Assembly (NCBI GenBank): GCA_963663945.1
Contig: OY760687.1
Span: 3,095,387 to 3,159,386 of the forward strand
Reading direction: 5' to 3'
DNA from: Dehalococcoidia bacterium
Lineage (GTDB): Bacteria > Chloroflexota > Dehalococcoidia > Lucifugimonadales > UBA3495
DNA: 64,000 nt
The position numbers were made by a program, and so were the translations under genes. The notes beneath the pieces were generated by a model, which saw only the letters and a program-made list of their open reading frames with translations, was not told the DNA's origin and made no database searches. How positions within the stretch are numbered: position 1 is the stretch's first letter; each line of letters begins with the position of its first letter. Shown here one piece after another: positions 1 through 63,037 of the stretch.

Positions 1-723
1 CCCCATCGGGAAGGTGTAGGTGTTCTGCTCGCCGTTGCGGTAGTGCAGCGGAGCCCCGTGGTTGGCTGCCACGTGGGGCATCGCCAGCGAGTCCAGGAAC
101 ATCAGGCTGTCGATCATGGACAGGTCAATGTACTGGCCCTCGCCCGTCTGCTGCCGGTGAAACAGCGCGTATCCCACCGCCATTGCCCCGGTCATGCCGG
201 TGATGGTGTCGCCGATGCCGCCCCCGATGGTGTACGGCGCGCCGTCCCGTTCGCCAGTGATCCAGTTGAGGCCGCTGACGGCCTGCGCCACCGGATCGGT
301 GCAGACGTGCTCGGGGTTGTGCGCGAATCCCTCCTGCCCGTAGCCCGTCATGGAACACATGATGATGCTCGGGTTGAGCGCGCGCAGGTTGGGGTAATCA
401 AGCCCGTAGCTCCGCACGACGTGGGGCGTGTAATTCTCCACAAGCACGTCGGCCCGCTTGACCAGGGCGTGGACTATCTCCAGCCCGGCCTCCGTCTTCA
501 GGTCGACGCACAGGCTCTTCTTGCCGCCGTTCAGGTGCAGATACGGCACGCCGTTGCGCGTGGGCAGCGACTCCGGCGTGAACCGTTCGTCCTGATCCGC
601 CACCGGACGCTCGATCTTGATCACATCGGCGCCCATATCGGCCATGATCCGGCTGCAGAACGGCCCGACAAACGCCGCCGTAAAATCCAGAACCGTTACC
701 CCAGCCAGCAGTCCTGTAGACAT
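1..723 (-). CDS. Family III CoA-transferase (CaiB/BaiF-like), C-terminal part lies beyond window edge
   Basis: Reverse frame from ATG (rc of 721-723) reads MSTGLLAGVTVLDFTAAFVGPFCSRIMADMGADVIKIERP..., a typical family III CoA-transferase N-terminus. GAGGAGG RBS upstream. The frame stays open to position 1, so it has no stop and is absent from the ORF track. Confidence 0.85.
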   Translation of the reverse strand, partial: MSTGLLAGVTVLDFTAAFVGPFCSRIMADMGADVIKIERPVADQDERFTPESLPTRNGVPYLHLNGGKKSLCVDLKTEAGLEIVHALVKRADVLVENYTPHVVRSYGLDYPNLRALNPSIIMCSMTGYGQEGFAHNPEHVCTDPVAQAVSGLNWITGERDGAPYTIGGGIGDTITGMTGAMAVGYALFHRQQTGEGQYIDLSMIDSLMFLDSLAMPHVAANHGAPLHYRNGEQNTYTFPMG

Positions 724-5882: not shown

Positions 5883-6440
5883 ATGACTGTCACAAACTAT
5901 CAGGACCGGATGCGGGAGTTGGGCCTGGCCCTGCCCATCGACCCGGACGCGGCGTCACGCTGGCGGGCCGCGCCCCGGCTGGACACGCTGCACGACAAGG
6001 TCGGCGGCTTCCTGGGCAACCGCAAGGCCAACGCCGACCTCCTGTTGCGAAACATCGGCGAGCGGATGGCGAAAGACCTCGAACTGGGCGACATCCTCGC
6101 GGTGGACAAGTACGTCTATTCCCGGCCGGCCGCCGATGACATCATCAGCGATCTCTCCGAGCGCTGCGACTTCGTGGTCACAGCGATTGCCGATTGAGGC
6201 TCCTGCACCGCGTGCAGTGTGCACGACGCAATGACCCTGGAGAACCTCGGCATCCCCACGGTGGTGCTCTGCACCGACCCATTCCTGAACTCGGCCTTCC
6301 TCCACGCCCGCACCTTTGGCCGCCCCGACTTCCACCCGCTCGGCATTCCCCACCCCCTGGGCGGCCTGACTCCCGACCAGGTCTCGGTCCGCGCCGGCGA
6401 GCTGGAACAGGCGGTTATCGATACGCTGACAACCTACTAA
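5883..6440 (+). CDS. UGSC-family selenoprotein (in-frame UGA at 6195-6197 read as Sec)
   Basis: Track ORFs 5817..6197 and 6219..6440 share a frame. Read-through gives ...VVTAIAD-U-GSCTACSVHDAMTLENLGIPTVV.... ATG 5883 with AGAGGT RBS gives 185 aa. A hairpin follows the UGA. Confidence 0.75.
6203..6225 (+). promoter_or_regulatory. SECIS-like hairpin(s) downstream of UGA 6195
   Basis: Two alternative hairpins: ctgcac-cgc-gtgcag (6203-6217) or cgtgca-gtg-tgcacg (6211-6225). Confidence 0.5.
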
Positions 6441-36396: not shown

Positions 36397-37803
36397 TTGC
36401 CGGCGTCAAACCGCAAACCACTCACCAGGATCGCCGCCGGCCTTCCACTCGCGCTGGCCGGCGTTATTCTGGCGGCCTCTATAGCCCTGGCCTGCGCCCC
36501 GTCTGAAGACACCACGAGCAGCGAGCCGTGGGCGGTCCCGCTGGCTGCAACCGACGCCCCCTTCCCAACGCTGGAACCCGCTGCCGACCTGCCTACCGCC
36601 GCGCTTGCCGACCGCGCAACGCCTTTGCCAACCGCAGCCCTGGCGTCACCTGCCACCGCGCTTCCCGCAGCCACCTCTTTCCCGGTGGCCAACGAGGTCA
36701 GTGTCCAGACAATCACCGCAGACGAGGCCGAGGAGGCCCGCACCCGCTACCAACGCCTCCTTCGGGCCACCTGGGACACCGACTTCACGCGCACGACGAT
36801 AGCCTACGACGAGATCATGACCGGCGGGCCGCCCAAAGACGGTATCCCGTCTATCGACAACCCGCAGTTCGAGTCAATTGCTGATGCGGACCTCTGGCTC
36901 GACGACCTCGAGCCCGTGCAGGTGGTCGATCTCAACGGCGACGTTCGCGCGTATCCGGTCCAGGTGATGGTCTGGCACGAACTTGTCAACGACACCGTCG
37001 GCGGCGAACCGGTAGTCATCACCTTTTGACCACTCTGCAATACCGCCTTCGTGTACAGGCGGACGGTTGACGACACGATCCTGGATTTCGGGACCACCGG
37101 CGCCCTGCGCGACAGCAACCTGCTGATGTACGACCGCCAGACCGAGACCTGGTGGCAGGAAGTGGGCGGCGAGGGAGTGATCGGACATTTCGCCGGCCGC
37201 AAACTGGAGCAACTCTACCTGTCCATCGTGTCCTGGGCGGACTTCAAAGCGGCCCACTCTGAAGGACAGGTGCTTTCCCGCCCCGACTCCGGTCGCGCCT
37301 ACGGGAACAACCCCTACGCCGGGTACGACCGTCCGGGCAGCCAACCGTTTCTGTTCCGTGGCGAGGAAGACCCCCGCTTGCCGGCAGTCGAGCGAGTGGT
37401 GGCGGTTGAACGCGGCAACGAGGCCTGGGCGGTGTCGTTCACCACGCTGGCCGAGGAGCGGGTGGTCACTACATCTGTGGCCGGCGAGGACATCTTGGTG
37501 TTCTGGTCGCCGGGAACCGCGTCCGCGCTGGACTCCGGAACGATATCAAGGGGAAGGGATGTGGGTACCGCCGGTATATTCTCGCCGCGAGGTCCCGACG
37601 GCAACGCGCTGACCTTCGCCCCAGACGCCGCCGGGCGCATCACCGACGTCGAGACCGGGAGCCAGTGGGATATATTCGGCCGCGCGGTCAGCGGGCCACT
37701 TGAAGGCTCTGAACTGACCCCGGTGCCGGGCCGCATTGGTCAGCTCTGGTTCTCCTGGGCGGTTTACCGTCCCGATACCGTCGTGTATCCGGCCACCGGC
37801 TGA
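36397..37803 (+). CDS. DUF3179-family lipoprotein with Sec in the CPLC motif (UGA at 37027-37029)
   Basis: Track ORFs 36397..37029 and 37051..37803 share a frame. Read-through gives DGIPSIDNPQF...VNDTVGGEPVVITF-U-PLCNTAFVY...LMYDRQTETWWQ. Lipobox IALAC. TTG start 2 nt after the upstream stop. Confidence 0.7.
37043..37062 (+). promoter_or_regulatory. SECIS-like hairpin after UGA 37027
   Basis: ccgcc(t)-tcgtgtac-(a)ggcgg, starting 14 nt after the UGA. Confidence 0.45.
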
Positions 37804-37812
37804 GCCACCTGC

Positions 37813-38427
37813 ATGGCGCGGCTTTGCTCGGTCATTGTGACCCTTGCCGTGACGGTCGCCCTGTGCCTGGCGCTGTCGGGCTGCCGTACCCCGACCGACG
37901 ACCCGGGCGCCGGCAGCGCCCAGTCTGATCCAGCCAACATCGAGGCAACCGTGTCGGCCGCGTTGCGCCCCTTGGAAGAAACGCGGCCTGGGGCCGACGG
38001 GGTCGCGCTACGCCCGCCGGCGCCAATGTTCGCGGGAACCTTCATGGACGGCAACGACTATCGGCTCGAGGACACCGTCGGCACCCCGACCTTGTTGATG
38101 TTCTGGGCCCCCTGGTGACCGCATTGCCAGCGGCAGTTGCCAGCTGTCCAGGGTTTCCACGAGGAGTACCACGGCGTCGACGCCGACATATTCGGAATTG
38201 CCATCAGCGCTCCCGAGCCGGAGGTCCGCGCGCTGATGGACAAACAGGGTCTGACCTTCCCCATCGCCCACGACCCGGCAGGGCAACTCGCCACCGTGTA
38301 TGGCGTCTCCGGTGTGCCTTTCTACATCTTCATCGACAAGGCCGGCCGGGTCGCCCATACCATCCCCGGCGCTCCCACCGACGTGAACACGATCCGGGGT
38401 TGGATCGAGGACCTTAACGCGGAATAG
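37813..38427 (+). CDS. TlpA/ResA-like thioredoxin-fold lipoprotein with W-U-P-H-C active site (UGA at 38116-38118)
   Basis: Track ORFs 37813..38118 and 38137..38427 share a frame. Read-through gives TLLMFWAPW-U-PHCQRQLP.... Lipobox LALSGC. Confidence 0.75.
38128..38146 (+). promoter_or_regulatory. SECIS-like hairpin after UGA 38116
   Basis: cagc-ggc-agtt-gcc-(a)-gctg: 7 bp with one bulged A, starting 10 nt after the UGA. Confidence 0.5.
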
Positions 38428-62104: not shown

Positions 62105-63037
62105 ATGCGCATCTGTTCTTTCCTACCCTCCGCGACCGAGATTGTTTATGCATTGGGACTGGAGGACCAACTCTACGGAGTAACCCACGAGTGCGATTAC
62201 CCCGCCCAGGCCAAAAACAAACCTTGGGTGGTGCGCAGCGTTTTCGAAGGCACACAGCCCAGCAGCGGCGAGATCAGCCGCGTGATCTCAGAGCGCCTCG
62301 CCGAGGGGCTCGGGATCTACCACATCGACCAGGAAATCCTGGACGCAGCCAACCCGGACCTGCTGCTCACCCAGGCTATCTGCGAGGTTTGAGCGGTGTC
62401 TTCTCGGCAGGTCGCCGAATCCACCGCCAACATGGACAAGGAACCCACCGTTCTGTCGCTGGACCCGCAGTATCTTGGTGACGTGTTGGAAGACGTCCGT
62501 CGGGTGGGCCGGGCCACGGGCGCGGAGTCCGTCGCTGATCAGGTCACCGCTCGCATGCAGGATCGCATCGACGCCGTCACTCAGCGCGCTGAACTGGCCG
62601 ACAGCCACCCGAAAGTCCTGCACCTAGAGTGGACCGACCCGTTGATGTGCGGTGGCCATTGGGTGCCGGAGATGGTGGAACTGGCCGGCGGAACCAATAG
62701 TTTCGGCGACAAGGAGATGGGCTCCTTCCCGCTGGAATGGGACGCGGTCGTTGAGAGCCAGCCGGACGTCATCGTGGTCATGCCTTGCGGTTTTGAGGTC
62801 CCACGCGGCATGGAAGACCTCCCCCTGCTCGCGGAAAAACCGGGCTGGGCTGGGCTGCCGGCCGTGCAGAACGACCGCGTGTACGTGATCGACGCCAGCA
62901 ATTACACCAGCAGGTCGGGGCCCCGGCTCGTCACCGGCCTAGAGATACTCGCGGAGATGATCCATCCCGAACTCTTCGCCGGGATGATCCCGGAGGGCGG
63001 CGCCCGCCGCATTTACGGATCGGGCAAAACCGGGTAG
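62105..63037 (+). CDS. BtuF-like (Peripla_BP_2 fold) cytoplasmic binding protein with a C-E-V-U motif (UGA at 62390-62392)
   Basis: Track ORFs 62105..62392 and 62396..63037 share a frame with only 3 nt between them. Read-through gives LLLTQAICEV-U-AVSSRQV. From memory, homologues carry C-x-V-C-A-V at this position. Confidence 0.65.
62393..62427 (+). promoter_or_regulatory. SECIS-like two-tier hairpin immediately after UGA 62390
   Basis: Outer stem gcggtg/caccgc, inner stem tcggc/gccga, apical loop AGGUC. Confidence 0.55.

What the first reader, a model, noticed from the sequence alone, without database searches (positions are those of the whole stretch)
62105..63037. BtuF-like binding-fold protein split by an in-frame UGA inside a C-x-x-U motif: possible new selenoprotein family
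ORFs 62105..62392 and 62396..63037 are in the same frame, separated by TGA plus a single codon. Each half alone is only a fragment of a Peripla_BP_2-type fold. Read-through gives ...DLLLTQAICEV-U-AVSSRQV..., a CxxU redox motif where I recall related cytoplasmic cobalamin-binding-like proteins having C-x-V-C-A-V. Directly after the UGA is a two-tier hairpin (gcggtg ... tcggc-AGGUC-gccga ... caccgc, 62393-62427). Its GU-containing apical loop resembles bacterial SECIS elements. I am not aware of this fold being listed among selenoproteins.
Basis: partly seen in the sequence, partly recalled or inferred. Interest (0 to 1): 0.8.

Follow-up and report, generated by a model that had tools for sequence, protein, structure and literature searches.

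The report
Known BtuF-like selenoprotein gene with SECIS
The two adjacent ORFs are one gene for a cytoplasmic, vitamin-B12-binding-protein-like protein whose internal UGA almost certainly encodes selenocysteine, but this selenoprotein family is already in published catalogues and its function is still unknown.

Summary
ORFs 62105-62392 and 62396-63037 share one frame, and the read-through product is a single Peripla_BP_2 domain.

The UGA is not an error, a split gene or a pseudogene:
- The same codon is TGA in all 84 loci fetched from related genomes (80 species-level Dehalococcoidia/SAR202 genomes), and in 11 more metagenome variants.
- More distant homologues all carry Cys there, in an invariant C-x-x-C.
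- A 6-bp hairpin with an AGGU(N) loop lies 10 nt after the UGA in every TGA form. It is held by unusual synonymous codons and one compensatory pair change.
- The hairpin is missing from Cys forms that encode the same peptide.
- The loop matches that of the E. coli fdhF SECIS.

The window also holds three other known selenoprotein genes with in-frame TGA (UGSC, DUF3179, ResA-like redoxin), so the organism decodes Sec. The sel genes themselves could not be examined.

The novelty claim fails. [quoted passage not shown]

The protein has no signal peptide and no transporter partner. Sec lies in a family-specific cleft insertion with three other invariant Cys. Its function is unknown; I infer cofactor or metal binding, or redox.

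The parts
62105..63037 (+). Complete coding sequence of the selenoprotein: 310 residues, Sec at residue 96, a cytoplasmic BtuF/heme-binding-protein-like class III binding fold.
   Evidence: Pfam PF01497 spans residues 8-264 across the TGA. Differences between orthologues peak at codon position 3 on both sides of the TGA: 0.44 upstream and 0.45 downstream, against 0.06 and 0.12 at position 2. There are no other internal stops in 78 orthologues. The AF2 model of the 69%-identical Cys homologue P0002 has pLDDT 96, and its best PDB matches are heme and B12 binding proteins. Residue 2 aligns with residue 25 of the E. coli BtuF precursor, so there is no room for a signal peptide.
62390..62392 (+). 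In-frame UGA read as selenocysteine (Sec96).
   Evidence: The codon is TGA in 84 of 84 related loci and never TAA, TAG or a Cys codon. It is also TGA in 11 further distinct metagenome variants. It aligns with an invariant Cys in full-length homologues.
62381..62392 (+). C-E-V-U motif (Cys93 ... Sec96), the counterpart of the family's invariant C-x-x-C.
   Evidence: The alignment of 149 cluster representatives has C95 and C98 (P0002 numbering) invariant. Profile alignment places the motif in an 8-residue insertion directly after the position of E. coli BtuF Trp85.
62403..62419 (+). SECIS core: a 6-bp upper stem (CUCGGC/GCCGAG in relatives; the window has GCCGAA, so 5 bp plus a C.A mismatch) closing the apical loop AGGUC (62409-62413), starting 10 nt after the UGA.
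   Evidence: This is the RNAalifold consensus of 54 distinct sequences. Pairs are 92% kept, with one G-C to A-U compensatory change. Synonymous codons are frozen (TCT, CGG, CAG, GCC, GAG) while the wobble base of loop codon 103 varies freely. Cys-form genes encoding the same peptide lack the stem. The loop resembles the AGGUCU loop of E. coli fdhF.
62393..62398 (+). 5' arm of the lower stem (GCGGTG), lineage-specific.
   Evidence: It pairs with 62422-62427 in the window's own clade. Across 54 sequences only 76% of cells pair, and the stem is absent from the RNAalifold consensus.
62422..62427 (+). 3' arm of the lower stem (CACCGC), lineage-specific.
   Evidence: Same evidence as for the 5' arm.
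62387..62389 (+). Val95 codon GTT directly 5' of the UGA, invariant at the nucleotide level.
   Evidence: The codon is GTT in 78 of 78 orthologues, although it is four-fold degenerate and T-ending in a 64% G+C genome. Its role is not established. An effect of codon context on recoding versus termination is my inference.

Best explanation
Positions 62105-63037 are one gene. The UGA at 62390-62392 is recoded to selenocysteine, giving a 310-residue protein.

Recoding mechanism (inferred from the established bacterial pathway). The hairpin at 62403-62419, with its AGGU(N) loop, lies 10 nt after the UGA. It is bound by SelB carrying GTP and Sec-tRNA(Sec), which delivers Sec to the ribosome in competition with RF2.

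The protein. It is a cytoplasmic member of the BtuF/heme-binding-protein (Peripla_BP_2, class III) fold, with no signal peptide and no ABC transporter partner. It belongs to the already catalogued 'cobalamin-binding protein BtuF, CxxU' selenoprotein family, here in SAR202/Dehalococcoidia (Chloroflexota).

Where Sec sits. Sec96 replaces the second Cys of an invariant C-x-x-C. That motif lies in a family-specific loop insertion at the interdomain cleft. Two further (near-)invariant Cys sit nearby in the fold: C30 in the N lobe and C228 in the C lobe.

Biochemical role (inferred, unproven). I think the most likely role is to hold or process a thiophilic ligand in the cleft through a Cys3Sec site. 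The ligand could be a metal ion, an Fe-S cluster or a corrinoid cobalt. A thiol/selenol redox role for C-x-x-U is the main alternative.
For: Shown directly:
- The TGA is conserved at the same codon in 84 of 84 loci from 80 species-level genomes at 71-95% amino-acid identity, and in 11 more metagenome variants.
- Cys occupies that column in all full-length homologues, and the column is invariant in 149 cluster representatives.
- There is coding-type purifying selection on both sides of the TGA in one frame.
- The upper hairpin is conserved with one compensatory pair.
- Synonymous entropy is 0-0.44 bit at stem codons 100-102 and 104-105 and at codon 95. The mean at other four-fold-or-more sites is 1.37, and the loop wobble codon 103 has 1.41. 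The fixed codons include the T-ending GTT and TCT, so codon preference does not explain the pattern.
- Cys-form genes encoding SSRQV[T/A]E pair at only 0-4 of the 6 stem positions, against 6 of 6 in every TGA form.
- The loop AGGUC at +19..23 compares with AGGUCU at +20..25 in E. coli fdhF.
- TGA is an ordinary stop for other genes in the window.
- Three more in-frame-TGA genes of known selenoprotein families lie in the same window. These are UGSC (NF041046, 127.8 bits against a cut-off of 125; PF24696, 9e-45), DUF3179 (1.7e-94) and a ResA-like redoxin. Each has a hairpin with a GU-containing loop about 19-29 nt after its UGA.

From the literature:
- The family is catalogued (PMC9312934; PMC13188914).
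- Dehalococcoidia MAGs are among the ten bacteria with the most selenoprotein genes in BSepDB, which counts a species as Sec-using only if it has at least two Sec pathway genes (PMC13326102).
Against: - No selA, selB, selD or tRNA-Sec is present in the 64-kb window or in the 20-kb flanks of the related loci. The whole genomes could not be scanned.
- There is no Rfam match to the hairpin.
- On the window sequence alone the hairpin energy is not exceptional (z = -1.8). The window's copy also has a C.A mismatch at the base of the upper stem, unique among 54 variants.
- Covariation is thin because the stem hardly varies. Only one pair shows a two-sided change.
- There are no protein-level data.
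- The Cys3Sec cleft site rests on sequence alignment to BtuF and on conservation.
- Gene neighbourhoods give no consistent functional clue.
Confidence: 0.9

Rival explanations
1. The UGA is a true stop. The locus is then a split gene, with a 95-residue N-terminal piece plus a C-terminal piece made by restarting at the nearby GTG, or it is a pseudogene.
For: Gene callers annotate every close relative as two ORFs or as a C-terminal fragment of 196-215 residues. A GTG lies two codons after the TGA in the window.
Against: The GTG at +2 is present in only 34 of 78 orthologues. In the others the first in-frame start codon lies 7-38 codons downstream, which would leave the conserved AVSSRQVAE segment untranslated. 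The stop is always TGA, never TAA or TAG, across 80 species. It aligns with an invariant Cys. The hairpin co-occurs perfectly with TGA. Purifying selection acts on both parts, which argues against a pseudogene.
Confidence: 0.03
2. The UGA is read through without the Sec machinery, for example by a near-cognate or suppressor tRNA inserting Cys, Trp or Arg, or UGA is reassigned in this lineage. The hairpin would merely slow termination.
For: The Sec machinery was not seen directly. Stimulatory hairpins downstream of leaky stops are known in other systems (my own knowledge).
Against: TGA ends many well-formed genes in the window, 19 of 63 coding-like ORFs, so there is no global reassignment. The site is a catalytic-type Cys column. 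The loop sequence and spacing match the SelB-binding fdhF element. Three classical selenoprotein families carry TGA at their known Sec positions in the same window. Published surveys count Dehalococcoidia MAGs among the selenoprotein-richest bacteria (PMC13326102).
Confidence: 0.05
3. This rival concerns function only. C-x-x-U would be a thiol/selenol redox centre of the thioredoxin-like type, acting on a small-molecule thiol or disulfide bound in the cleft. It would not be a metal or cofactor ligand set.
For: Most CxxU and UxxC selenoproteins in the published catalogue are redox proteins (PMC13188914). Some family members are fused to a DCC1-like thiol-disulfide oxidoreductase, to gamma-glutamyl cyclotransferase or to CoaE. 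One member lies next to CoaX and CoaBC. These hint at low-molecular-weight thiol metabolism.
Against: Four Cys from both lobes are (near-)invariant, not two. The fold is a ligand-binding clamp with no known redox members. The fusions and adjacencies are single cases, and neighbourhoods are otherwise unconserved.
Confidence: 0.35
4. The TGA is a sequencing or assembly error at 62390-62392.
For: None beyond the a priori possibility.
Against: The same TGA occurs in independent assemblies from 80 species and in several metagenome projects.
Confidence: 0

Closest known systems
[quoted passage not shown] 2022 (PMC9312934) and Zhang et al. 2026 (PMC13188914) and attributed there to Peng et al. 2016
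   Same: BtuF-type fold, a CxxU motif and a single Sec. NCBI names the Cys-form homologue P0017 'cobalamin-binding protein'.
   Different: I found no contradiction. However, I could not retrieve the reviews' representative accessions (RUA21600.1, MDE0719563.1) to compare sequences. The cited 2016 paper does not name the family in its main text or in the supplementary files held; its Table S3 was read in full. The catalogue gives no function, hairpin or distribution.
E. coli BtuF, the periplasmic vitamin B12-binding protein of the BtuCD-F importer
   Same: Two-lobe class III binding fold. hhalign gives 98% probability over 237 columns. The conserved LPSATE and DYP motifs align with BtuF's ligand-contacting region.
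   Different: No signal peptide. Only 36 bits against the BtuF equivalog model, whose cut-off is 234. No permease or ATPase neighbours. An 8-residue CxxC/U insertion follows the Trp85 position, and there are four conserved Cys that BtuF lacks.
E. coli fdhF SECIS element, the archetypal bacterial SECIS bound by SelB
   Same: A hairpin directly downstream of the UGA within the coding sequence. The apical loop is AGGUC(U), with the GU at nearly the same distance from the UGA: +20..25 in fdhF and +19..23 here.
   Different: The stem sequence is unrelated, there is no bulged U, and the loop lies one nucleotide closer to the UGA. Binding by any SelB is untested.
SaoB and SaoX, the ABC-transporter substrate-binding selenoproteins of Haft and Gwadz 2023 (as listed in PMC13188914)
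   Same: They are selenoproteins annotated as ABC-transporter substrate-binding proteins. Whether they share this protein's fold was not checked, because the paper was not available.
   Different: No match to NF040727 or NF040735 at E < 0.01. The motifs differ (CUxxT and UxP against CxxU). The Sao proteins sit in transporter operons, and this one does not.

Membership tests
Bacterial selenoprotein gene (Sec-UGA plus SECIS) | In-frame UGA conserved among orthologues, with coding conservation on both sides | tested here: met
   84 of 84 loci plus 11 metagenome variants carry TGA. Differences between orthologues peak at codon position 3 upstream and downstream of the TGA.
Bacterial selenoprotein gene (Sec-UGA plus SECIS) | Cys-containing homologues with Cys aligned to the UGA | tested here: met
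   AICEVCA[VI]SS in all full-length homologues. The column is invariant in 149 cluster representatives.
Bacterial selenoprotein gene (Sec-UGA plus SECIS) | Stem-loop shortly downstream of the UGA with a conserved G (GU) in the apical loop | tested here: met
   A 6-bp stem with an AGGU(N) loop at +19..23, conserved with frozen synonymous sites and absent from Cys forms. No Rfam model matches it.
Bacterial selenoprotein gene (Sec-UGA plus SECIS) | selA, selB, selC (tRNA-Sec) and selD present in the same genome | not testable with these tools
   They are absent from the 64-kb window and from 84 flanks of about 20 kb. Weak SelD-like hits turned out to be ThiL. Whole genomes could not be read. Indirect support comes from three other known selenoprotein genes with TGA in the window and from the BSepDB listing of Dehalococcoidia MAGs.
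Bacterial selenoprotein gene (Sec-UGA plus SECIS) | Selenium actually incorporated at the UGA | not testable with these tools
   This needs 75Se labelling or mass spectrometry.
Catalogued 'Cobalamin-binding protein BtuF' CxxU selenoprotein family | BtuF-type (cd01144 / Peripla_BP_2) domain | tested here: met
   PF01497, E 5.8e-25. Foldseek best matches are heme and B12 binding proteins. hhalign to BtuF gives 98% probability. CDD itself was not run.
Catalogued 'Cobalamin-binding protein BtuF' CxxU selenoprotein family | Single Sec in a C-x-x-U motif | tested here: met
   C93-E-V-U96 is the only in-frame TGA.
Catalogued 'Cobalamin-binding protein BtuF' CxxU selenoprotein family | Sequence relationship to the catalogue's representatives RUA21600.1 and MDE0719563.1 | not testable with these tools
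   Proteins cannot be fetched by accession. Looking up the clusters of ten relatives returned other accessions only.
BtuF proper (periplasmic B12-binding subunit of BtuCDF) | Reaches the curated equivalog score | tested here: not met
   NF002894 scores 36.1 bits against a cut-off of 234.
BtuF proper (periplasmic B12-binding subunit of BtuCDF) | Signal peptide and export | tested here: not met
   Residue 2 aligns with BtuF precursor residue 25. Most of the best-scoring family representatives start within a few residues of the query's residue 1-2. The 30 in-frame codons upstream are not hydrophobic.
BtuF proper (periplasmic B12-binding subunit of BtuCDF) | Genomic association with a FecCD-type permease and its ATPase | tested here: not met
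   None in the window or in relatives' flanks. Isolated ABC_tran genes near two distant homologues have no permease beside them.
BtuF proper (periplasmic B12-binding subunit of BtuCDF) | Binds cobalamin | not testable with these tools
   This needs biochemistry.
SaoB / SaoX substrate-binding selenoproteins | Match to NF040727 or NF040735 | tested here: not met
   Neither is among the NCBIfam hits at E < 0.01.

The most novel reading that the evidence does not exclude
Sec96 is not a generic redox residue. It is one of four (near-)invariant cleft-facing ligands (C30, C93, U96, C228) that clamp a metal centre between the two lobes of a binding-protein fold that has left transport and become cytoplasmic. 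The centre could be an Fe-S cluster, a corrinoid cobalt or a soft metal. That would be a selenolate-ligated cofactor site in an SBP scaffold. The family is large, with more than 1000 clusters at 50% identity scoring E < 1e-30, and it has never been characterised.
Probability: 0.3. Interest if true: 0.6.

Novelty: already known. Interest (0 to 1): 0.3.

Why it matters
For annotation, public gene calls split this gene into fragments in essentially every SAR202/Dehalococcoidia genome examined. The same window holds three further selenoprotein genes that cannot be called intact unless UGA is read as Sec. Selenoproteome-aware annotation therefore changes the predicted proteome of an abundant marine and sponge-associated lineage.

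For biology, the family is catalogued but uncharacterised. It is a widespread cytoplasmic BtuF-fold protein with four conserved Cys, one of which is upgraded to Sec in one clade. That points to a reactive or thiophilic site worth biochemical study.

It does not add a new kind of recoding or a new selenoprotein family.

Tried and rejected
- Rfam scans of the hairpin region at E up to 10, and of the whole window at gathering thresholds, gave no hit. Bacterial SECIS elements are too short and varied for this to count as evidence.
- tblastn with E. coli SelA, SelB and SelD, and ARAGORN for tRNA-Sec, on the window plus 84 flanking loci found nothing. The four weak SelD-like hits are ThiL genes next to tsaE.
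- Gene neighbourhoods of Sec forms and of four Cys-form homologues are not conserved and contain no cognate transporter.
- I tried to trace the family to its cited source, Peng et al. 2016. The main text and Table S3 do not mention it.
- I tried to match the reviews' representative accessions through cluster look-up, without success.
- The Haft and Gwadz 2023 paper and the BSepDB supplements are not held.
- Literature searches for SAR202 with selenoprotein, and for a cytoplasmic BtuF-like Cys protein, returned nothing.
- Global covariation statistics are weak because the stem is almost invariant. I therefore relied on synonymous-site constraint and on the Cys-form control instead.
- A second patch of low synonymous entropy at codons 263-269 was checked. 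It consists entirely of C-ending preferred codons in a highly conserved motif, so I read it as codon preference rather than RNA structure.

Full report
**1. The observation**

The sequence is as described. An ORF starts at ATG 62105 and reaches TGA at 62390-62392. After one codon (GCG) the ORF lister starts a second ORF at GTG 62396, in the same frame, which runs to TAG 63035-63037. The read-through translation is ...DLLLTQAICEV*AVSSRQVAE....

With the stop replaced by Cys, the 310-residue product matches Pfam Peripla_BP_2 over residues 8-264, across the stop, at E 5.8e-25. It also gives weak, sub-threshold NCBIfam matches to BtuF, IsdE and other class III binding proteins.

The hairpin is present: lower stem 62393-62398 with 62422-62427, upper stem 62403-62408 with 62414-62419, loop AGGUC. 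On this sequence alone it is not statistically striking (z = -1.8).

**2. Is the UGA real and conserved?**

A protein search gave a clear two-class result. Full-length homologues of about 313 residues, at 55-69% identity, all have Cys at the stop column (AICEVCA[VI]SS). The closest relatives, at about 77-92% identity, are annotated only as C-terminal fragments of 192-220 residues.

Fetching DNA showed why. In 80 species-representative genomes, all Dehalococcoidia, SAR202 or Chloroflexota MAGs at 71-95% identity, and in four further contigs, the codon is TGA in 84 of 84 cases within QAICEV*A[VI]S. It is never TAA, TAG or a sense codon. A metagenome scan added 11 more distinct TGA variants.

Differences between orthologues concentrate at third codon positions on both sides of the TGA: 0.44 upstream and 0.45 downstream, against 0.06 and 0.12 at second positions. 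No other in-frame stop occurs in 78 distinct genes. This excludes a sequencing error and a pseudogene.

A stop-and-restart split gene is also unlikely. A start codon two codons after the TGA exists in only 34 of 78 genes. In the rest the first possible in-frame start lies 7-38 codons downstream, which would leave a conserved protein segment untranslated.

**3. The hairpin as a SECIS**

Across 54 distinct sequences, RNAalifold predicts only the upper 6-bp stem, CUCGGC/GCCGAG, closing the loop AGGU(N). The stem is almost invariant. There is one compensatory G-C to A-U change: CGG to CAG, which changes Arg to Gln, paired with GCC to GCT, which is synonymous.

Because the stem barely varies, classical covariation statistics are weak. 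Two other tests are more informative.

- *Synonymous-site constraint.* Codons 100-102 and 104-105 (TCT, CGG, CAG, GCC, GAG) and codon 95 (GTT, 78 of 78) have 0-0.44 bit of synonymous entropy. The mean for 142 other sites of four-fold or higher degeneracy is 1.37. Codon 103, whose wobble base is the last loop nucleotide, has 1.41. The frozen codons include the T-ending GTT and TCT in a 64% G+C genome. That differs from the only other low-entropy patch, codons 263-269, which uses C-ending preferred codons throughout.
- *A natural control.* Cys-form genes encoding the same peptide, SSRQV[T/A]E, use TCC CGC or CGT. They can form only 0-4 of the 6 stem pairs, most often 1-2. Every TGA form makes 6 of 6.

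The loop sequence and position resemble the E. coli fdhF SECIS: AGGUCU at +20..25 in fdhF, AGGUC at +19..23 here. Rfam has no matching model.

**4. Does the organism decode Sec?**

No sel genes or tRNA-Sec lie in the window or in the fetched flanks, and whole genomes were out of reach.

TGA is an ordinary stop for many window genes, so UGA is not globally reassigned. A frame-aware scan found three more in-frame TGAs at the known Sec positions of established selenoprotein families:

- a UGSC-family protein, TGA at 6195, which passes the NCBIfam cut-off and hits Pfam UGSC at 9e-45;
- a DUF3179 protein, TGA at 37027 in F-U-PLC, Pfam 1.7e-94;
- an adjacent ResA/TlpA-like redoxin, TGA at 38116 in WAPW-U-PHC.

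Each has a hairpin whose GU-containing apical loop lies about 19-29 nt after its UGA. The BSepDB paper lists two Dehalococcoidia MAGs, with 49 and 46 selenoprotein genes, among the ten richest bacteria. It requires at least two Sec-pathway genes to count a species as Sec-using (PMC13326102).

**5. What the protein is**

An AlphaFold model of the 69%-identical Cys homologue P0002 is confident (pLDDT 96). Its best PDB neighbours are periplasmic heme-binding proteins and BtuF, with query-normalised TM-scores of 0.65-0.71.

A profile alignment to E. coli BtuF has 98% probability. It shows that the family begins where mature BtuF begins, so there is no signal peptide. It also shows that AICEVC/UAV is an 8-residue insertion immediately after the position of BtuF Trp85, and that Cys30 sits one residue after the position of BtuF Tyr50. 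That these two BtuF residues contact B12 is my recollection of the BtuF structure papers, not a result obtained here.

The wider family is large: 1058 clusters at 50% identity score E < 1e-30. In 149 representatives the invariant residues are Q, C, C (the last being the Sec column), P, W and a C-lobe Cys, with Cys30 nearly invariant.

There is no conserved neighbourhood and no cognate permease or ATPase. Occasional fusions to CoaE, to a DCC1-like thiol-disulfide oxidoreductase and to GGACT, and one adjacency to CoaX and CoaBC, hint at thiol metabolism. These are single cases.

**6. Mechanism**

The recoding step follows the established bacterial pathway. SelB with GTP and Sec-tRNA(Sec) binds the apical loop of the hairpin 10 nt downstream and delivers Sec at the UGA. 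This is inferred from the anatomy and not shown here.

For the protein, I infer a cytoplasmic clamp whose cleft carries a Cys3Sec site that holds or processes a thiophilic ligand. A C-x-x-U redox centre is the main alternative. Neither was testable here.

**7. Comparison with what is known, and novelty**

[quoted passage not shown] DUF3179, UGSC and redoxin selenoproteins appear in the same tables.

The fold, the motif and the single Sec all match. NCBI calls a Cys-form homologue 'cobalamin-binding protein'. I could not compare sequences with the reviews' representative accessions. The 2016 paper they cite does not itself name the family in the text and supplements held.

The protein is not BtuF proper. 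It fails the equivalog score, lacks a signal peptide and has no transporter context. It is not a SaoB or SaoX family member either.

**8. Verdict**

It is not a new family.

What this analysis may add beyond the catalogue entry, as far as I could see:
- the extent of TGA conservation across SAR202/Dehalococcoidia;
- the definition of the SECIS core, with its synonymous-site signature and the Cys-form control;
- the cytoplasmic location;
- the four-Cys cleft architecture.

Interest is modest.

Noticed in passing
window 5883-6440 (+), TGA at 6195-6197: A UGSC-family selenoprotein gene with an in-frame TGA in ...AIAD-U-GSCTAC... It scores 127.8 bits on NCBIfam NF041046 (cut-off 125) and 9e-45 on Pfam PF24696. 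A hairpin with a GUG loop follows the UGA.
   Followed up: partly
window about 36397-37803 (+), TGA at 37027-37029: A DUF3179 protein (Pfam E 1.7e-94) with an in-frame TGA in VVITF-U-PLCN. This is the Sec position of the catalogued DUF3179 UxxC selenoprotein family. It has an N-terminal lipoprotein-like signal and probably starts at TTG 36397.
   Followed up: partly
window 37813-38427 (+), TGA at 38116-38118: A ResA/TlpA-like redoxin lipoprotein with WAPW-U-PHC, starting 10 nt after the DUF3179 stop. The two selenoprotein genes are adjacent and probably co-transcribed. A 7-bp hairpin with an AGUU loop lies at +19..22.
   Followed up: partly
window 62387-62389: The Val codon directly 5' of the Sec UGA is GTT in 78 of 78 orthologues, with zero synonymous variation at a four-fold site, although it lies outside the hairpin. 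It may be a context requirement for recoding versus termination. This is unexplained.
   Followed up: partly
window 62419: The window's own SECIS has GAA where 53 of 54 distinct relatives have GAG. This creates a C.A mismatch at the base of the upper stem. It is the only such variant seen.
   Followed up: no
window 62891-62911 (codons 263-269): A second patch of very low synonymous variation (GAC GCC AGC AAC TAC ACC AGC) in the conserved DASNYTS motif. All are C-ending preferred codons, so I read it as codon preference rather than RNA structure.
   Followed up: partly
P0173, P0235, P0130; L089 7040-8936: Distant Cys-form family members are fused to CoaE, to a DCC1-like thiol-disulfide oxidoreductase or to gamma-glutamyl cyclotransferase. 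One lies next to CoaX and CoaBC. This may link the family to CoA or low-molecular-weight thiol metabolism, but the evidence is single cases.
   Followed up: partly
Literature: PMC9312934, PMC13188914 versus PMC5029168: Both reviews attribute the BtuF CxxU selenoprotein family to Peng et al. 2016. That paper's main text and Table S3 do not mention BtuF or a cobalamin-binding protein.
   Followed up: yes
L001, L002, L003, L004 flanks (e.g. L002 1156-1854, 10645-11367, 12532-13128, 15027-15620): Several Uma2-family (PF05685) endonuclease genes are scattered around the locus in related genomes, including one that overlaps the 3' end of the BtuF-like gene by 4 nt. The window has no counterpart at that position.
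   Followed up: no
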